A stretch of DNA of 64,000 nucleotides from Vulcanimicrobiales bacterium (GCA_038231455.1 JBBRLI010000012.1:36794-100793); one strand, 5' to 3'; shown: positions 1,847 through 24,902, numbered from the stretch's first letter. A program made the numbers and translations. Notes: generated by a model from the letters alone, not told the origin.

Positions 1847-2603
1847 GCGTCGCCGCTCCGAGATAGGCATCGATGACCGCCGGATCGGCTTGCACGTGCG
1901 CGGGCGTTCCATCAGCGATTTTCGCACCGTGGTGGAGCACGATGACACGCTCGGCGATGCCCATCACCAGACTCATTTTGTGCTCGACCAAACAGACGGT
2001 AAAGCCGGCCTTCGCCATGGCAAGAATCAGGTCGGCATGCTCGACCGTTTCTTCGGAGGTAACGCCCGCCGCCGGTTCGTCCAACAGCACGAGTTTGGGT
2101 TTGCTGGCGACAGCGATTGCGATCGCGAGCCGCTTTTGCGCCTCCTGCGGGATCGAGCCGGCAATACGGTCGGCATAACGCTCGATTCCGGCAAAGCGCA
2201 AGGCCTCGTAGGCCGCCTCGCAACTCTCGCGTTCTTCACGCCGCGCGCGCGGCGTTCGCAGAAGCGCATCGAAGAGACCGCTCTGCGTATGCATGCGGTA
2301 CCCGACGATGGCATTGTCGAGCACGCTTGCATTTCGAAAAAGGCTCGTCGTTTGGAAGGTGCGCGCGATCCCAAGCCGTGCGATTTCGTGCGTCGCACGA
2401 TGCGTGATGTCGACGCCCTCGAAGACGAGCTGCCCCGAGGTCACCGGATAATAGCCCGAGATCAGATTGAAGCACGTCGACTTGCCCGCGCCGTTGGGTC
2501 CGATCAGTGCGACGATGGAACCGCGCTCGATCGTGAAGCTGACATCGTCAACGGCGGTAAGTCCGCCGAAGCGTTTCGTGATGCCGCTGACGGTAAGCAG
2601 CAT
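1839..2603 (-). CDS. livG: ABC transporter ATP-binding protein, LivG family
   Basis: [30 protein letters not shown]-terminal VIDAYLG; start taken at MLLTVSG. Confidence 0.93.
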
Positions 2604-3595
2604 TAGTTCGCACTGCCCTGTGCGAGTGGCGGCTCGCTCGTCAGGGCAGTCGGGGTCGGACGGCCGATGCGGCCGCGCAATTTCGCCAGCCCACCGACGA
2701 TGCCGCTCGGGAAAAATATCACGAGCAGGACGAGCATCGGTCCGAAGATCAAGAATTTGAAACTCTCGATGCCCTGCAAAAATTGTCCGAGGACCACCAG
2801 CACGAGCGTGCCCACAAGCGGCCCCCACAGGGTGCCGACACCACCGACGATGAGGTAGAGCAGCATGTCGAAGGTCACGTCGAGACCCGTCGAGTCAGGC
2901 CCCAGGAACCCGATGAAAATCGCGTACATCCCGCCGGCAAGCCCCGCCAAAAACGTCGAAAGCATGAAGGCCGCGCTCTTCGCACGCATCACATCGATGC
3001 CAACGGCGCGCGCGAGATCTTCGTTGCCGGCGATGGCAATGAGCGAGCGGCCAAAGAGCGAGCCGCGTACGCGCGCGCAGATCGCGAAAGCGAGGATCAG
3101 CGCGACGAGCACGAGATAGTATTTCGCGATCGAACTCTCAAATGAGATCGGACCGATTGGCGCAGGCGGCGGAATGTTGAGCACGCCGATATTCCCGCCG
3201 GTGAGTTCTTGCCAGTTTGTGAAGATCACGCTGATCATCACGCCGATGGCCGCCGTGAAGATCGCAAAGTAATGCCCGCGCGTGCGCAGTGAGACCAGAC
3301 CCACCAGATATCCGAGGATGACCGCCGCCGCACAACCCGCCGCAAGCGCGACCCAAAACGGTACGCCCAGGCGCGTCTCGAGCAGCGCGACGCCGTATGC
3401 GCCAATCCCAAAAAACGCCGCGTGACCAAGCGTAAGCAGGCCGGTGTACCCAAGGATGATGTTCAGGCCGTAGACCGCGATCGCACTGATATACGCGGTC
3501 ACGATCACTTGCCGATAATATTCGCTATGGACGAACAGCGGCAGCACGAGAGCGACGAGTAATGCGGCAAGCGGAACGATGCGGCGGGCGCCCAA
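2603..3595 (-). CDS. livM: Branched-chain amino acid ABC permease, LivM family
   Basis: GYTGLLTLGHAAFFGIGAY, LRTRGHYFAIFT, GGVGTLWGPLVG; probable TTG start 1 nt after the livH stop. Confidence 0.9.
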   Translation of the reverse strand: MGARRIVPLAALLVALVLPLFVHSEYYRQVIVTAYISAIAVYGLNIILGYTGLLTLGHAAFFGIGAYGVALLETRLGVPFWVALAAGCAAAVILGYLVGLVSLRTRGHYFAIFTAAIGVMISVIFTNWQELTGGNIGVLNIPPPAPIGPISFESSIAKYYLVLVALILAFAICARVRGSLFGRSLIAIAGNEDLARAVGIDVMRAKSAAFMLSTFLAGLAGGMYAIFIGFLGPDSTGLDVTFDMLLYLIVGGVGTLWGPLVGTLVLVVLGQFLQGIESFKFLIFGPMLVLLVIFFPSGIVGGLAKLRGRIGRPTPTALTSEPPLAQGSAN

Positions 3596-20589: not shown

Positions 20590-22020
20590 ATGGCTAATGA
20601 ACTGCGCGATTTTCTCATGCTTTCGTACACCGAGCTCGAAGAGCTCAACCTTGCGGCCAAAGACGACCGTAAGAACCGCGTCCCCGAGGCGAAGATCGCC
20701 GAGAAGCGGATGAAGTATCTCGCGGGAGAGACGCGCATCAAGGCGGTCACCGTGCTCTTCACCGACCTCGAAGGTCGGCTGCACATGCTGGACTACGACA
20801 AGAAGTTCTTGCTCAAGTCCGCCGACAATTTGACGTTCGACGGATCGTCGATCCGTGGATTTACGCCGCAGCGCGAAAGCGATCTGCGCTTGGCGCTCGA
20901 CTGGAGTGCGTTCTACTGGGCCCCCGGCGACATTTTCGGCGCCGGGAAAGTTATGGTCTTCGGCGAGGTCCTCGACCGCGACGGCTCGATCTTCCCGGGC
21001 GACATCCGCGGCAAGCTCAAGAAGCTCTCGAAGGACCAGTTCGAGAAAAACGGCTACACGCTCAACGCCGCAAACGAAATCGAAGGCTTCGTTTTCGAAG
21101 GCCTCGATGCAGAGCGCAACTATCACAAAACGGGCAAATTCGAATATGTGAACACCGGCGGCTACTACCACTCGCTCCCCGGCGACAAACTCCGTCTCTT
21201 CATCGATACCGTAGCCGAAGTGCAGCGCGCGATGGGCTTCGAAAACGAAAAAGATCATCCGGAAGTCGCTCCGTCGCAGTTTGAAATCAACTACAGCTAC
21301 GGCGAAGTGCTCATGGCCGCCGATCAGATTCAGCTCTACAAGTTGATCTGTCGCCAGGTCGCAACGACACTCGGTCTCTCGGTTAGTTTTCTTCCCAAAC
21401 CCGTCGTCGGCGTCAACGGCAGCGGCATGCACACCAACGTCTCGATTTCCAAGAACGGCAAGAATCTGTTTTGGGATCCCAAAGGCGAAGAAAAAGTTAG
21501 CGCAATGGCGTGGGGCTTTATCGATAAAATTCTGACTGCGGGTAACGATATTTGCCTGATGCTCAATGCAAGCGTCAACTCATATCGTCGACTCGATCCG
21601 CACTTCGAAGCGCCGAATCAGATTAAAGCCTCAGCCGTCGATCGGGGCTCGATGATCCGCATTCCGATCGGCAACGAACGTTCTGCGCGCGTCGAGGTTC
21701 GCTCGGTTGCGCCCGATGCCAATCCGTACATGGTTATGCTCGCGGTGTTCCAAACGGGGCTTGAAGGCACCGTGAGCAAGATCAAAAATCTGCGTCAGGC
21801 CGAACGGTATCTGCCGGATAACATCTACACGGCGCTCGATGACTTTCGTGCCTCGGAGTGGACGGCAAAGCTGCTTGGAGCGGATGTTAAAGAACGGTAT
21901 GCAGAACTCAAACAGGCGAGTGCCGATCGGTGCCCGCGACTGCTTGGCACTTTTGTGAAAGCGCAAGAAGTGCAGTATCATCACGAAGTTTACAATCAGT
22001 ATCTTTGGAATTTGTTTTAA
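20590..22020 (+). CDS. glnA: Glutamine synthetase family protein
   Basis: FDGSSIRG, HPEVAPSQFEI, FLPKP...NGSGMHTN, NSYRRLDPHFEAP, RVEVRSVAPDANPY. Confidence 0.9.
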   Translation: MANELRDFLMLSYTELEELNLAAKDDRKNRVPEAKIAEKRMKYLAGETRIKAVTVLFTDLEGRLHMLDYDKKFLLKSADNLTFDGSSIRGFTPQRESDLRLALDWSAFYWAPGDIFGAGKVMVFGEVLDRDGSIFPGDIRGKLKKLSKDQFEKNGYTLNAANEIEGFVFEGLDAERNYHKTGKFEYVNTGGYYHSLPGDKLRLFIDTVAEVQRAMGFENEKDHPEVAPSQFEINYSYGEVLMAADQIQLYKLICRQVATTLGLSVSFLPKPVVGVNGSGMHTNVSISKNGKNLFWDPKGEEKVSAMAWGFIDKILTAGNDICLMLNASVNSYRRLDPHFEAPNQIKASAVDRGSMIRIPIGNERSARVEVRSVAPDANPYMVMLAVFQTGLEGTVSKIKNLRQAERYLPDNIYTALDDFRASEWTAKLLGADVKERYAELKQASADRCPRLLGTFVKAQEVQYHHEVYNQYLWNLF

Positions 22021-22041
22021 GATCTGATTGTTCGTGGACTT

Positions 22042-22071
22042 GGAGGGTAGCGTCTGCTGCTCTCCTTTTTT
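22042..22071 (+). terminator. Rho-independent terminator of glnA
   Basis: GGAGGGTAGC-gtct-GCTGCTCTCC stem (two G-U pairs) plus T6. Confidence 0.75.
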
Positions 22072-22235
22072 ATTGTGGCTGGGCGGGGATTGTATGCGGT
22101 TGCGGTGGGGACGCCCGCTATTTCACATCCATGTGAAATAGCTACTTGCCGACATTTTGCTCCCGCCCATCCTGGGCTCCGCAAAATGCTCGGACACCCC
22201 ACCGCAACCGCATACCATCCCCGCCTCAGTACGAT
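22072..22235. repeat. Branched (three-way junction) palindromic element, REP/MITE-like
   Basis: Outer arms GGCGGGGAT(T/G)GTATGCGGTTGCGGTGGGG inverted; inner perfect hairpin GCTATTTCACAT-cc-ATGTGAAATAGC (22117-22142); second hairpin CCGACATTTTGC..GCCCA-tcc-TGGGC..GCAAAATGCTCGG (22149-22193). Confidence 0.85.
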
Positions 22236-22271
22236 TTTCTTTGTTCGCTTGGTTGGGTTTTCTATTTTTTT

Positions 22272-23957
22272 CTAGGTGCAGTTGTAGCCGGTTGCCAGTG
22301 GCGTTATTCCTGAGGGTACGGTTCCGCCGGTTACTGTTGCGTTTATTGTTGGTGATCCGATGTTGGTGGTGACGTCATTATTGCTGTGTTTGCCGGCGTG
22401 GTAATGATAGTGCCGGCGGGGATGCTCGTGTGCGTTGTTGCGTCGGTGTCGGTGATGGTGAAGCTTAGGGCGTTGCCATTTTTGTCCGAGTAGGGTTCTG
22501 CGCCGACGATGAGCGCGCCCGATGCGTCTCGTGCTACGAGCTGAACCGTTGTTGTTAGGACGGATGCTCCCGGACATGGGGCGATGATTCCGATTGCAAA
22601 GGTTACTTTGTCGACGACTCCGTTTAGGGCTACTGCTAATTTGTTGACGGCGTTTGGTTGGACTAGAAGCGGGACCGTGTTTGTTTCGAGAATTTTTCCG
22701 GTTCCGCTGGCTCCGCCGATGGCGTTGTAGCCGGTGATCGTGACGTTTGATTGTCCGGCGGCGACGGTTAGCGTTGTCGGTCTGCAGGTTAACGGAAATC
22801 CGATACGGGCGACGTTGCCGGCGCTCTGCTCGCTGAACCAGACGGCTTGATCGGAGCCGAGCGTTGCGTAGATGACGCCGCTGCTAGCCGTCGGCGGGTT
22901 GAATGTGTTGAAGACGCCGCTGGTTGTGGCGCGAATGACCGTGTTGTTGTTGTAATCGGTCATGTAGAGCGCGCCGTCGGCGCCGACGATCATTTTAAAG
23001 ATGAACGGAGTTGTGGCAGGGATCGGGTACGAGTTGGTGGTGATGCCCGCGTAGGTCATGCGGTTGAGCATCGTTGCGTCGGCATACCAGATTGCGTTAT
23101 CGGGGCCGGCGACGATTGCGTTTCCGTTCTTCGGCACGCTGAATTCGGTTAGAACACCCGCGGTCGTTAATTTCCCGACTTTGCTGTTGTCTTCGGTGAA
23201 CCAGATCGCGTTGTCGGTGCCCGTCGTTAGGGCGTAGGTATTGCCGCTCGTTGGATAGGTTCCGATTAGGGCTCCGGTGGCGTCGAGATGGAAAATGTTG
23301 GGTCCGGTATTTGTTGTCGAGGCGGTGAACGCGGAATACCAGAGCGTTTTGTCCGCCGTTGCAGTAAATTGCAGGGCTTGGTTTGCTACCGGAAGGATCG
23401 TTTCGGAAAACGTTGTTGTGATGTCGGTAATCGAACCGGTGTAGAGCCCGCCGACCCACAGGTTGTTGTCGGGGCCGACGATGATGTCTTGTGCGAGGCC
23501 GCTCGAAGTAAGGTTCGGCGTGCGCGCGTAGTTCGTGCCGTCGGTATCGATGTGCGAGATTGCACCGCCGTTGTCTTCGACGATCCAGAGTTTGCCGTCG
23601 GGGCCGTTGATGATGCCGCGCGGTTGGACGTACGACGAGTACAGAGGGTATTCGTTGATTGAGGGCTTGGTGCAATCGGCCGTGCATCCGGGCGTTCCCA
23701 TGGCGAGATTGACGTTGACCGGTGGGGCGGCGCCGACGGTTACGGCGATCGACTTTGTCTGCGGCGAGATGTAGGAGGCGTGTCGTTTTCCCGAATTGCT
23801 CGCTCGTGCCGGAATGGTGATGCTCACGGCAAGCGAACCGGTACCCGCCGGCTGCGGCGTAGCGGGGGCTGTCGTTCGCGTCGCGATAGACGCACCGCCT
23901 CCGCTGCACCCGACGATGGCGAGAGAGAATCGCGGCAATGGCGGTTCGACTTTGCAC
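22272..23957 (-). pseudogene. Lipoprotein with Vgb (virginiamycin B lyase)-like beta-propeller repeats; two frameshifts
   Basis: Repeats GPDGKLWI/GPDNNLWV/GTDNAIWFTE/GPDNAIWY/GADGALYM/GSDQAVWFSE. Signal peptide MQSRTAIAAILS and lipobox LAIVGC are in different frames (shift at 23921-23928). The natural C-terminus ...TTNIGSPTINATVTGG...YNCT* is in another frame (shift near 22375). Confidence 0.75.
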
Positions 23958-24095
23958 TTCGTAACCCTCAGGGCGGCTGACCAGACGGCGTAGGGCTTGC
24001 TCGTCTGGGGTGGGTGCACCCTCCGGGATCGCATTTCGACCGGGCTAACCGCCTAGAGCATGTGCTAGCTTCCTTATTTTTGGGTAACGGCGGTT

Positions 24096-24902
24096 ATGCC
24101 CAAGACGATTTTGCTGATCCCCGGCTGGCACGAGAAGGCGCACGATCTGCGCACGATCACGCATGGCCGGCCGCCGCTTCCAGGTCTGGCCGCGCGCGGG
24201 TACGATCCCAAAACGTTTGAGTTGCTCCCCGATGAGTCGTTGCCCGAGCGGATCGATCGCTTTGCGGATTATGTCCGCGCGCTCAAAGTCGCGGAGCCGA
24301 CGCGCTTTCCGCTCTCCATCTTTGGCTATTCAATGGGCGGGATCGTCGCGCGCGGACTCTTGCATCGGCATCCCGAGCTCGTCCCGGACATCTCGCACGT
24401 TGCGCTGCTGGCGACGCCGAACTGGGGCCTGCCGATGGCCGACGTACCGGCACTCGCCCGCGTCGTGGGCTTACCGTGGAAAGAGCTGTACGACATCGAT
24501 CCGCAGCGCGAATTCATCCCTACGCTCAACGGTTGCCACGGGGATTGGAACGATATCGACGGCACCCGCGTGTGGCTGCCGGATCAAGAGCCGTGGATCG
24601 CTCCGGCCGGCGTCAAAATGCTGGCAATTGCGGGTATCGTGCCGCGTTTTCAAGACGGTGATGGGCTCGTGACGACAGACTCCGCGACGATGGGCGGACG
24701 CATTCCGTCGGTTATCATCACGGATCGTCACGCAAATCATCTCAACGTTACCGGTGAAACCGATTCGATCGCAACGCTCGTGCGCGGCTTTCAGCGCTCC
24801 GACGGCGTCTGGCCGCAGGTACTCGACGCGTTTTGCGAATTCATCGAAACCGAAGAACAATCGCCCGTTCGCGAGGAAACGCTGACGCGTCTGGCCGGAT
24901 AG
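24096..24902 (+). CDS. Alpha/beta hydrolase (lipase/esterase-like)
   Basis: LLIPGW oxyanion region, GYSMGG nucleophile elbow, LATPNWG, GDGLV, NHL. Confidence 0.85.
   Translation: MPKTILLIPGWHEKAHDLRTITHGRPPLPGLAARGYDPKTFELLPDESLPERIDRFADYVRALKVAEPTRFPLSIFGYSMGGIVARGLLHRHPELVPDISHVALLATPNWGLPMADVPALARVVGLPWKELYDIDPQREFIPTLNGCHGDWNDIDGTRVWLPDQEPWIAPAGVKMLAIAGIVPRFQDGDGLVTTDSATMGGRIPSVIITDRHANHLNVTGETDSIATLVRGFQRSDGVWPQVLDAFCEFIETEEQSPVREETLTRLAG

What the first reader, a model, noticed from the sequence alone, without database searches (positions are those of the whole stretch)
21400..23957. Strand-specific, distance-dependent mutational halo centred on a hairpin element: possible local hypermutation system
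Seen (hand counts): in glnA (+), 40 codons at 20641-20760 end in C 18 times and T 3 times, but the last 40 codons (21901-22020) end in C 6 times and T 13 times. In the convergent propeller gene (-), 40 codons near its 5' end (about 23798-23917) end in G 14 times and A 5 times, whereas the last 33 sense codons next to the element end in G 2 times, A 15 times and T never. Both shifts equal C-to-T enrichment on the same physical (+) strand and are strongest at the 22072-22235 palindrome. The glnA terminator stem also carries G-U pairs. Because the two genes face each other, a transcription-linked bias should hit opposite strands, and horizontal transfer would not give a gradient inside glnA. Inference: repeated nicking, resection or single-strand exposure at the element (for example by a HUH/RAYT-type nuclease acting in trans) deaminates or error-repairs one strand over 1-2 kb, diversifying the neighbouring surface protein.
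Basis: partly seen in the sequence, partly recalled or inferred. Interest (0 to 1): 0.8.

Follow-up and report, generated by a model that had tools for sequence, protein, structure and literature searches.

The report
One-strand substitution halo around dispersed repeat
Every copy of a 160-base folded repeat in this uncultured soil-type bacterium sits beside one to two kilobases where one DNA strand has swapped C for T and A for G at silent sites, a local directional bias I found no report of for bacterial repeats.

Summary
The last 40 codons of glnA are in the top 0.14% of 2142 genes for T-ending over C-ending codons.

The element (window 22075-22235) is one of 10 copies of a three-helix palindromic repeat in this Eremiobacterota genome. 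All 10 copies have a G+T-rich 'top' strand just 3' of the element. The mean keto skew over 1 kb is 0.195, against 0.002 (sd 0.05) at 1310 control sites, and it decays over 1-2.4 kb whichever way the flanking genes point. A short 5' halo appears only where the upstream gene reads into the element.

The bias sits at third codon positions. It is derived: a same-genus genome lacking the element after glnA has C where this genome has T at 34 sites against 3 in the distal 476 nt. It is missing at young copies in another genus.

It is not hypermutation. At six shared loci the C/T difference rate inside halos equals background, so direction changes and rate does not. It hits housekeeping genes (dnaA/dnaN, gatCAB, gcvP, glnA). 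I found no RAYT, reverse transcriptase or sigma-54.

Best guess, inferred only: asymmetric strand exposure and repair from outward transcription or R-loops.

The parts
20590..22020 (+). glnA (glutamine synthetase, 476 aa). Its last ~700 nt carry the short 5'-side halo: C-to-T on the + strand, rising towards the element.
   Evidence: Pfam Gln-synt_C 3.1e-72 and Gln-synt_N 8e-11. Third-position blocks. Against G001 in 238-nt bins, sites with T here and C there: 1, 5, 4, 7, 14, 20. The reverse: 6, 8, 6, 2, 2, 1.
22042..22072 (+). glnA intrinsic terminator: 10-pair stem (two pairs read as G-T by eye) followed by a T run. It ends 3 nt before the element.
   Evidence: Terminator scan; fold.
22075..22235 (+). 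Repeat element, top strand = + strand. Outer stem P1 (arms 22082-22110 / 22197-22225), hairpin P2 (22117-22142), hairpin P3 (about 22148-22196). Conserved ends ATTGTGGCT ... GGCACGAT; this copy ends AGTACGAT.
   Evidence: Inverted repeats. RNA fold -135.6 kcal/mol, z = -13.8 for 22018-22270. Covariance model R1 scores 164 bits, E 1.9e-38. 57 of 60 pairs show compensatory changes across 51 copies. No Rfam family reaches its gathering score.
22236..22271 (+). G+T-rich spacer between the element and the stop codon of the convergent gene. This is the start of the long 3'-side halo.
   Evidence: Sequence. Keto skew of the first 250 nt right of the element is 0.47.
22272..24034 (-). Vgb-lyase-family beta-propeller gene with a lipoprotein-like N-terminus, convergent with glnA. 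It lies wholly in the 3'-side halo, so its coding strand is A3/C3-rich. It has an apparent 1-nt frameshift near 22371.
   Evidence: Pfam Vgb_lyase 9.7e-41. Frames. Third positions. One base 'put in behind 22371' in a 1584-nt contig of run X1.
22236..23900 (+). 3'-side halo at this copy. The + strand gains T over C: third-position T/(T+C) is 0.67, 0.75, 0.33, 0.55, 0.37, 0.33 per 300 nt, against a background of 0.28. It also gains G over A: A/(A+G) is 0.10-0.24.

Best explanation
SHOWN. The hairpin is one copy of a dispersed, structured, MITE/REPIN-like repeat of about 160 nt with three helices. It occurs in 25 of 41 related Eremiobacterota genomes searched.

In the genus of this window the copies are old, mutually diverged, and share the ends ATTGTGGCT...GGCACGAT. 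Each acts in cis as the source of a polar, strand-specific substitution bias. On the strand that carries the element in its defined orientation ('top'), silent sites shift from C to T and from A to G. The shift is strongest at the element's 3' edge and fades over 1-2.4 kb, whichever way the flanking genes point. A 0.4-0.8 kb halo on the 5' side appears only where the upstream gene reads into the element. The direction of substitution changes but the overall rate does not. This is a compositional drive, not a hypermutation device.

INFERRED mechanism. The top strand is kept preferentially unpaired or unrepaired while the bottom strand is protected. That is what happens to the non-template and template strands of transcription, or a persistent R-loop, that starts at the conserved 3' end and runs outward. 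Transcripts of co-oriented upstream genes that run into the element would add the short 5' halo.
For: Cis link to the element:
- All 10 copies have positive top-strand keto skew in the first 250 nt to the right (0.09-0.47, mean 0.26; the genome's 99th percentile of |skew| is 0.20).
- Two of the 10 copies were found only afterwards by the model, and both obey the prediction.
- The mean over 0-1000 nt is 0.195. The 1310 intergenic controls have mean 0.002, sd 0.050, max 0.150. Seven of 10 copies exceed every control, and 0 of 200000 random sets of 10 reach the observed mean.
- 17 of the 25 most asymmetric third-position windows in the genome lie beside a copy.

Strand rule independent of gene strand:
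- Third-position T/(T+C) next to the element is 0.69 in sense genes and 0.61 in antisense genes, against 0.28 background. G/(G+A) is 0.81-0.90 against about 0.75.

Filtered by selection:
- Position 3 is affected far more than position 1, and position 2 hardly at all.

Derived and directional:
- glnA against same-genus G001, which has no element there: 34 sites with T here and C there against 3 of the reverse in the last 476 nt, compared with 10 against 20 in the first 714 nt (Fisher p = 5e-7).
- 20 of 26 such changes in codons 358-476 are derived here by majority of 20 outgroups.

Needs time:
- 25 copies in G005 are 83-99% identical to their consensus (two outliers at 58-61%) and show almost no halo.

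Features that point to transcription:
- The 5' halo is seen with 4 of 4 co-oriented upstream genes (0.51-0.75) and 0 of 4 opposed ones (0.33-0.49), Mann-Whitney p = 0.029.
- The halo is longer in sense genes (about 2.4 kb) than in antisense genes (about 1.2 kb).
- C-to-T up and T-to-C down with unchanged flux: 19.1 and 20.3 C/T differences per 100 Y3 sites in the halo against 17.0-20.8 outside. That is what exposure of one strand plus protection of the other predicts.
- The dnaA-dnaN copy alone has GTAGCT at its 5' end. This reads as a TACAAT hexamer on the other strand, and that copy alone has a mirror-image halo running leftward over dnaN-recF.
Against: - No promoter or transcript is shown, and no RNA data exist for this organism.
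- The -10-like reading of the 3' end is weak. The copy ending ...CACGAC still has a strong halo (0.26). Halo strength does not track hexamer quality across the 10 copies.
- Ordinary high expression does not produce the pattern here. tuf and fusA have T3/(T3+C3) of 0.18 and 0.21.
- At this very copy an intrinsic terminator stands between glnA and the element. Read-through into the element should therefore be limited, yet the glnA halo is strong.
- The pairing statistics do not look like a top-strand RNA: G-T 0.93% against A-C 1.94% of 2997 cells.
- The copies in G000 and G001 are largely orthologous, so there are only about 10 independent loci. The sense/antisense and co-oriented/opposed contrasts rest on 4-6 loci each.
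- The flux argument assumes near-stationarity. G000 is still gaining T relative to G001: 354 against 227 differences over 0-2.4 kb.
Confidence: 0.4

Rival explanations
1. Mini-origin or nick model. The element is nicked, or primes DNA synthesis, on the top strand at its 3' end. Repeated rightward strand displacement or nick translation follows, as with leading-strand synthesis at a ColE1-type origin or rolling-circle initiation. This either leaves the old top strand single-stranded (deamination) or re-synthesises it with G-T-type errors.
For: - It has the same geometry as the observed halo: the strand running 5'-to-3' away from the element becomes G+T-rich, as at replication origins.
- Both C-to-T and A-to-G occur on one strand.
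- The 1-2 kb scale fits.
- One of the 10 copies lies in the dnaA-dnaN spacer, where a mirror-image halo also runs the other way.
- The lack of wobble preference in the stems fits a DNA-level hairpin.
Against: - The substitution flux is not raised in halos, whereas error-prone re-synthesis or extra deamination alone predicts about a 2-fold rise.
- It does not explain why the 5' halo depends on the orientation of the upstream gene, or why the halo is longer in sense genes.
- No Y1/HUH transposase was found.
- Element orientation shows no consistent relation to the weak background GC skew.
Confidence: 0.2
2. Selection, not mutation. A top-sense transcript or the top DNA strand near the element is selected to be C-poor and G/U-rich. 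Possible reasons are to keep the G-rich 5' arm of the hairpin from mispairing with flanking C-rich sequence, or to let an outward transcript escape Rho, which prefers C-rich, G-poor RNA (recalled).
For: - Reciprocal change of the C-to-T and T-to-C rates with constant flux is the signature of a shifted fixation bias.
- A 5' halo only where the upstream mRNA includes the element fits insulation of RNA folding.
Against: - Weak selection would have to act on hundreds of silent sites as far as 2 kb from the element, in a smooth gradient.
- G enrichment would increase mispairing with the C-rich 3' arm.
- Sense genes are translated and so are not Rho targets, yet they have the longest halos.
- Non-coding flanks show the same shift: in the first 100 nt T is 0.33 and C 0.21, against 0.20 and 0.30 in all intergenic DNA.
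Confidence: 0.15
3. Nicking and resection by a trans-acting HUH/RAYT nuclease create a local hypermutation zone that diversifies the neighbouring surface protein.
For: The halo is real, strand-specific and centred on the element. The propeller protein's C-terminal part is rich in Thr, Asn, Pro and Ala, which are encoded by A/C-rich codons.
Against: - No Y1_Tnp match in the genome.
- The resection geometry gives the wrong strand on the long side.
- The rate is not elevated.
- The effect is at third positions.
- The same halo lies over dnaA/dnaN, gatCAB, gcvP and glnA.
- glnA has 1 amino-acid change in its halo.
Confidence: 0.03
4. No process at all. The pattern reflects horizontally acquired DNA, the codon usage of one gene family, or an assembly artefact.
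For: The propeller gene and the element are absent at this locus in G001, so that segment could be an insertion. The propeller's amino-acid composition contributes to the all-position skew.
Against: - The neighbours of the 10 copies are unrelated core genes.
- The gradient runs inside glnA, whose 5' half is normal and 87% identical to G001.
- The changes are silent and directional.
- The same pattern is present in an independently assembled genome.
- An independent contig of the sample agrees with the window apart from 4 other letters and the single put-in base in 1584 nt.
Confidence: 0.02

Closest known systems
Replication-associated strand asymmetry (GC/TA skew switching at oriC) and the vertebrate mitochondrial strand-displacement gradient (recalled textbook knowledge; reviews PMC3269012 and PMC3269016 seen only as search listings and abstracts)
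   Same: The strand that runs 5'-to-3' away from the source becomes G+T-rich through C-to-T and A-to-G changes at silent sites. The amplitude is graded with distance, as expected for time spent single-stranded.
   Different: Here the effect is local (1-2.4 kb) and essentially one-sided. It is about ten times stronger than this genome's replicative skew (about 0.02). It is repeated at 10 dispersed copies of a mobile-type repeat, with no consistent relation to the background skew.
Transcription-associated mutational asymmetry and R-loop-linked GC skew downstream of promoters; somatic hypermutation tracts of immunoglobulin genes (all recalled, no paper read)
   Same: A 1-2 kb zone downstream of a fixed start. 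The non-template strand gains T and G. Exposure of one strand is combined with protection of the other.
   Different: No promoter or transcript is shown here. Highly expressed tuf and fusA in the same genome show nothing of the kind. The source is a repeated palindromic element, and the substitution rate is not raised.
REPINs/REP elements with RAYT transposases, and bacterial MITEs (PMC3116915, PMC3337134, PMC3733652, seen as search listings and abstracts only)
   Same: Dispersed intergenic palindromic repeats that fold as hairpins. They show compensatory changes in the stems, vertical persistence at orthologous sites, and bursts of near-identical copies in some genomes.
   Different: This element is about 160 nt with a three-way junction and a strongly conserved asymmetric core. 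No RAYT/Y1 gene was found. None of the titles or abstracts listed mentions a compositional halo around copies.
ColE1-type R-loop-primed origin with a Pol I synthesis tract (recalled)
   Same: A structured RNA or DNA element, with unidirectional synthesis over the first few hundred to a few thousand bases. In experiments the mutation footprint declines with distance.
   Different: That is a plasmid system with a known primer RNA. Here the copies are chromosomal and dispersed, there is no evidence of initiation, and the rate is not elevated.

Membership tests
REPIN/RAYT system | A single-copy RAYT (Y1/IS200-like tyrosine transposase) gene in the genome | tested here: not met
   Pfam PF01797 Y1_Tnp has 0 matches in G000 (93.7% complete). 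The control search rings in 6 of 14 reference genomes.
REPIN/RAYT system | Two inverted REP units forming a hairpin, with compensatory evolution of the stem | tested here: met
   95.4% of 2997 cells are paired. 57 of 60 pairs have changes on both sides across 51 copies. 0 of 500 shuffles reach this.
MITE (non-autonomous DNA transposon) | Many near-identical copies, indicating recent transposition | tested here: met
   In G005, 23 of the 25 copies analysed are 83-99% identical to their consensus. About 42 forward matches are listed for G005.
MITE (non-autonomous DNA transposon) | Target-site duplication and an empty site in a relative | tested here: inconclusive
   The apparent empty site at gatCAB in G001 is an internal deletion that keeps both termini. 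The gcvP site in G001 holds a truncated copy. No clean empty site was found.
IS200/IS605 TnpB guide (omega) RNA | The element lies at the 3' end of a tnpB gene, or matches the RNA of the resident tnpB loci | tested here: not met
   Two TnpB-like ORFs (C57, C8) give no match to model R1 better than 10.7 bits, E 0.09, with filters off.
Sigma-54 promoter (the conserved 3' end resembles the -24 box; consensus recalled) | A -12 GC at fixed spacing, and an rpoN gene in the genome | tested here: not met
   The flanks printed were read by eye: -12 GC stands at the right spacing in a minority of the 17 copies of G000 and G001. PF04552 Sigma54_DBD has 0 matches in G000.
Diversity-generating retroelement / retron | A reverse transcriptase gene and adenine-specific changes | tested here: not met
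   PF00078 RVT_1 has 0 matches. The spectrum is C-to-T and A-to-G on one strand, at silent sites.
Known RNA family (Rfam 15) | Score at or above the gathering threshold | tested here: not met
   The best matches are mir-935 at 29.2 bits (threshold 73) and TwoAYGGAY at 23.6 bits (threshold 43).
Outward sigma-70-type promoter in a repeat | A transcription start just beyond the 3' end | not testable with these tools
   No RNA run holds the stretch. The consensus scan finds no promoter inside the element. The reading of the 3' end as -10-like is by eye.

The most novel reading that the evidence does not exclude
Each long-resident copy is an active chromosomal site where a persistent R-loop or primed strand-displacement synthesis starts: a dispersed, mobile 'mini-origin'. 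If so, a selfish repeat rewrites the local mutation spectrum and codon usage of whatever host genes lie within 2 kb, including dnaA/dnaN at the true origin. The effect is strong enough to defeat codon-usage-based gene finding. This would be a new class of cis-acting genome-shaping element in bacteria.
Probability: 0.3. Interest if true: 0.92.

Novelty: categorically new. Interest (0 to 1): 0.86.

Why it matters
Local mutation or fixation bias in bacteria is usually ascribed to replication direction, expression level or horizontal transfer. Here a small repeat predicts the silent-site composition of the neighbouring 1-2 kb, strand by strand, at every copy. T/(T+C) rises from 0.28 to 0.6-0.8.

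If the cause is single-strand exposure, the copies are natural reporters of R-loops or non-canonical DNA synthesis in an uncultured phylum. The contrast between young copies (no halo) and old copies (halo) would then give a clock for how fast such asymmetries build.

If the cause is selection, it reveals an unknown long-range constraint around a structured repeat.

There are practical consequences. The halos made my codon-usage gene caller miss gatC, gatA and gcvPB. They mimic 'foreign' DNA in compositional screens, and they bias dS and codon-adaptation estimates for the affected genes.

Tried and rejected
- Paralogous gene family with odd codon usage: rejected. The neighbours of the copies are unrelated genes.
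- Rfam: nothing reaches a gathering score.
- RAYT/Y1 transposase, reverse transcriptase and sigma-54: no match in the 93.7%-complete genome.
- TnpB guide RNA: two tnpB-like ORFs exist, but the element model does not match them.
- Link to replication direction: the background GC skew is about 0.02 and its sign relative to element orientation is mixed.
- Context of the C-to-T changes in glnA. 34 of 87 available C3 sites changed. By 5' neighbour the rates are A 0.55, T 0.45, G 0.29, C 0.15, and there is no CpG effect (3' neighbour G: 0.31). The sample is too small to name an enzyme.
- Copy age against halo strength within G005: Spearman rho -0.26, p = 0.2, not significant.
- Terminal motif against halo. 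Copies ending in the g1-type hexamer have mean 0.196 (n = 14); the others have 0.056 (n = 42). The comparison is fully confounded with genus.
- Expression: no RNA holder is listed for the stretch.
- Laying contigs of the one DNA run gave only the 1-nt difference at 22371 and pieces of glnA from other organisms. It gives no information on polymorphism.
- Literature: five full-text searches listed no paper that describes a compositional or mutational halo around a bacterial repeat. I read only listings and abstracts. Supplements were not available.
- An ORF between a pair of inverted copies in G005 (L096) looked like no transposase by eye and was not searched.
Full report
**1. The observation**

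The window is contig C12:36794-100793 of a 3.71-Mb, 106-contig genome, 93.7% complete. The best glnA relatives are titled Vulcanimicrobiota or Candidatus Eremiobacteraeota MAGs.

glnA is 20590-22020 on the + strand (Pfam Gln-synt_C/N). The convergent gene at 24034-22272 is a Vgb-lyase-family propeller.

In 40-codon blocks, GC3 of glnA falls from 0.88-0.95 to 0.47. C3 drops from 16-26 to 5-8 and T3 rises from 1-7 to 10-13. G3 stays roughly level and A3 rises slightly. In the last ~450 nt of the propeller gene, A3 rises to 11-18 of 40 and G3 falls. T3 stays at about 3 and C3 stays high. Both shifts amount to C-to-T on the + strand.

I called 2775 ORFs of at least 100 aa with a simple codon log-odds caller; they cover 82% of the genome. 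Against this background the glnA tail is reached by 0.14% of 2142 genes and the propeller tail by 1.0%.

**2. The element is a repeat family, and the other copies also have halos**

BLAST and then a covariance model (R1, built from 7 copies) find 10 forward copies in the genome. Two of them (C10:77141-77333 and C3:143671-143830) were not used to build the model.

I scanned all 17539 windows of 200 third positions for D = T/(T+C) - A/(A+G) on the contig + strand. Of the 25 most extreme windows, 17 lie beside a copy. The other 8 lie in three genes on C5, C7 and C35 that have no copy.

The genes beside the copies are unrelated to one another. They include glnA and the propeller, the dnaA|dnaN spacer, gatCAB, gcvPA/PB, three large membrane-type ORFs and others. 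A paralogous family with odd codon usage is therefore excluded.

**3. Geometry**

The core of the element is asymmetric, so each copy has a defined orientation. The model scores the reverse strand about 100 bits lower.

With all copies oriented alike, the top-strand keto skew (G+T-A-C)/N in the first 250 nt to the right is positive at 10 of 10 copies (0.09-0.47, mean 0.26). The mean then runs 0.21, 0.18, 0.13, 0.12, 0.07 and reaches about 0 by 2.5 kb. The 250 nt to the left average 0.15. Genome 250-nt bins have sd 0.077, and the 99th percentile of |skew| is 0.20.

Controls were 1310 pseudo-sites: intergenic mid-points, both orientations, with real copies excluded. For 0-1000 nt they give mean 0.002, sd 0.050, max 0.150. 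The observed mean is 0.195. Seven of 10 copies exceed every control, and 0 of 200000 random sets of 10 reach the observed mean.

Pooled over all positions, T/(T+C) is 0.60 just right of the element, against 0.387 genome-wide, and returns to baseline by about 2.5 kb. G/(G+A) is 0.69 against 0.612, on the right side only. On the left, T/(T+C) rises from about -800 nt to 0.55 while G/(G+A) does not change.

**4. It acts at silent sites, on one physical strand**

For this analysis I added by hand four ORFs that my caller had missed inside halos. Third-position T/(T+C) on the top strand next to the element is 0.69 where the gene is on the top strand and 0.61 where it is on the other strand (background 0.28). 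Position 1 moves only to 0.44-0.47 from about 0.36, and position 2 hardly at all.

The right halo reaches about 2.4 kb in sense genes and about 1.2 kb in antisense genes.

The left halo is present where the upstream gene reads into the element: C12 0.62, C31 0.51, C9 0.69, C3 0.75 in the -300 bin. It is absent where the upstream gene points away: 0.36, 0.39, 0.33, 0.49. The separation is complete (Mann-Whitney p = 0.029) but rests on only 4 against 4 loci.

Non-coding flanks shift too. In the first 100 nt to the right T is 0.33 and C 0.21, against 0.20 and 0.30 in all intergenic DNA.

**5. The glnA halo is derived**

G001, the same-genus genome, is 87% identical over glnA. After glnA it has neither the element nor the propeller gene, and no remnant of the element.

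In six 238-nt bins along glnA, sites with T here and C in G001 number 1, 5, 4, 7, 14, 20. The reverse number 6, 8, 6, 2, 2, 1. That is 34 against 3 in the last two bins and 10 against 20 in the first three (Fisher p = 5e-7).

In codons 358-476 there are 26 silent differences with C in G001 and T here, against 1 of the reverse. By majority of 20 outgroup orthologues, 20 of the 26 are derived here, 2 are ancestral and 4 are unresolved. Majority polarisation in a C-rich clade leans towards C. Loss of an ancestral halo in G001 cannot be strictly excluded, but it would require near-complete reversion.

T3/(T3+C3) in the last quarter of glnA is 0.54 here and 0.13 in G001. Only 1 of the 12 amino-acid differences between the two proteins falls there.

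Of 80 glnA loci from other genomes I examined 25. Their last 60 codons have T3/(T3+C3) of 0.06-0.39, against 0.71 here.

**6. Other genomes**

The model matches in 25 of 41 relatives including G000: family f1 17 of 24, f2 5 of 5, f3 2 of 11. This tally includes the unpublished G009 and G022, from which nothing else was used.

In G001 all 7 copies with a right flank have a halo (first bin 0.10-0.30). By flank similarity, six are orthologous to copies here, so they are not independent evidence.

At gatCAB, G001 keeps only the two termini of the element after an internal deletion, and it still has the halo. At gcvP it keeps a truncated copy. The halo is therefore a legacy written in the DNA.

In G005, a closed genome of another genus, 23 of the 25 copies analysed are 83-99% identical to their consensus, which indicates a recent burst. 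Their mean right-side skew is 0.10 in the first 250 nt and 0.00-0.04 beyond.

The two glnA loci elsewhere that carry the element (L022 and L016, 2 of 80) show no halo. A few copies in other genera do show one: G019 L125, G010 L129, and mildly G012 L130. Others do not: G015, G014.

The conserved ends ATTGTGGCT...GGCACGAT are specific to the genus of the window. Copies with that kind of 3' end average 0.196 (n = 14) against 0.056 for the rest (n = 42), but this contrast is confounded with genus.

**7. Not hypermutation**

At the six loci where both G000 and G001 keep the element, C/T differences per 100 third-position Y sites are 19.1 and 20.3 in the first 1.2 kb of the halo, where T/(T+C) is 0.61 and 0.50. 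Outside the halo they are 17.0-20.8. The all-site figures agree.

I worked through a two-state model by hand from those numbers. A pure rise in the C-to-T rate large enough to give T/(T+C) = 0.61 predicts about 32% differences. A pure fall in T-to-C predicts about 11%. A reciprocal roughly two-fold change of both predicts about 20%, which is what is observed.

Direction is therefore biased while rate is not.

One caveat applies. G000 is still gaining T relative to G001 (354 against 227 over 0-2.4 kb, p = 1.5e-7), so stationarity is only approximate.

**8. The element itself**

It folds into an outer stem of 25-30 bp plus two hairpins.

Across 51 copies from 9 genomes (window/G000, G001, G005, G010, G012, G014, G015, G017, G019), 95.4% of 2997 cells are standard pairs. 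57 of 60 pairs have double changes. No shuffle (0 of 500) or slid register comes near.

G-T pairs make up 0.93% of cells and A-C pairs 1.94%. There is thus no wobble preference for the top strand as RNA. This fits a DNA-level hairpin or a constraint on both strands, as recalled for REPIN-type repeats.

No Rfam family reaches threshold.

**9. Mechanism**

The shown facts are as follows:
- The bias falls on one strand.
- Both C-to-T and A-to-G occur on the long side.
- The source lies at the 3' edge of the element.
- The reach is 1-2.4 kb and is longer in sense genes.
- The 5' halo appears only with co-oriented upstream genes.
- The substitution flux is unchanged.
- Time is needed for the halo to build.

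5'-to-3' resection from a break would expose the other strand on the long side, so it is rejected.

Outward transcription or an R-loop fits best. The top strand would be the non-template strand (exposed) and the bottom strand the template (hybridised or preferentially repaired). This model explains the reciprocal rate change, the sense/antisense difference and the orientation dependence of the 5' halo.

Two details read by eye point the same way:
- The conserved 3' end can be read as an extended -10-like box.
- The dnaA-dnaN copy alone has a 5' end whose complement reads TACAAT, and it alone has a mirror-image halo running leftward over dnaN-recF.

Several points count against this model:
- No transcript is shown.
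- Hexamer quality does not track halo strength.
- tuf and fusA show no such bias.
- The glnA terminator stands before this copy.

A nick-primed or origin-like model shares the geometry. It predicts a raised rate and does not explain the orientation effects.

Selection on a top-sense RNA explains the constant flux. It does not explain the 2-kb graded reach or the G enrichment.

I put the transcription/R-loop reading at 0.4, nick/mini-origin at 0.2 and selection at 0.15.

**10. Novelty**

Five full-text searches (listings and abstracts only) and three look-ups in this scan's earlier findings turned up no description of a compositional halo around a bacterial repeat. The nearest analogues are origin skews, the mitochondrial strand-displacement gradient, and promoter-proximal asymmetry in eukaryotes. 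These work in a similar way but belong to different systems.

Noticed in passing
window 22343-22400 (about 22371): The propeller gene is frameshifted in the window: frame 1 stops at 22343 and a second frame runs on to 22272. A 1584-nt contig of the only public run holding this stretch has one extra base after 22371, which gives a single open frame. This is probably an assembly error or a minor variant, not a pseudogene.
   Followed up: partly
G000:C4:199775-199933 (locus L002) and C4:196400-199500: One copy lies in the dnaA-dnaN spacer, antisense to both genes. Besides the usual right-side halo over the 3' part of dnaA, a mirror-image halo runs leftward over dnaN and recF. There the bottom strand is T-rich: third-position A/(A+G) on the top strand is 0.52-0.77, peaking about 1.2 kb away. 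It may reflect oriC, or a leftward start at this copy's unusual 5' end.
   Followed up: partly
G000:C9:88950-90815; C10:75376-76857; C3:143831-144874: My codon-usage-based gene caller failed to call gatC, gatA, gcvPB and a 347-aa ORF because they lie in halos. Compositional gene finders and 'alien DNA' screens may be misled at such sites.
   Followed up: partly
L135/L136 (G001:C33, near 25271) and L138/L139 (G001:C36:87067-88039): In the same-genus genome the gatCAB copy is reduced to its two termini by an internal deletion. The gcvP copy keeps only its first ~60 nt, followed by about 1 kb of unrelated DNA. Both sites keep their halos.
   Followed up: yes
right flanks of copies in G000 and G001, +14 to +45 nt (for example window 22236-22271): Several copies share a semi-conserved box (CTTCTTCTTAGCCGTTT-like) followed by GGTGG-type G clusters just beyond the 3' end. 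The functional unit may therefore extend about 40 nt past the modelled element.
   Followed up: no
G000:C57:about 2300-3522 (L144) and C8:1-854 (L145): Two TnpB-like (Cas12f1-like_TNB) open frames lie at contig ends. They are unrelated to the element by the model search.
   Followed up: partly
window 24096-24902 and L088/L091 (G001:C4:195276-196494): The alpha/beta-hydrolase gene next to the propeller gene is mostly missing in G001. Only its first ~80 nt remain, joined to the following gene. The two genomes therefore differ here by more than one indel.
   Followed up: no
G000:C5:135424-138783: A 1119-aa ORF has strongly A3/C3-rich codon usage (six of the top 25 asymmetric windows) with no element copy nearby. 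The cause is unknown.
   Followed up: no
L016:5449-5622 and L022:5451-5606: In two other genera the element also sits immediately after glnA, once in each orientation. This suggests repeated insertion behind this terminator rather than shared ancestry.
   Followed up: no
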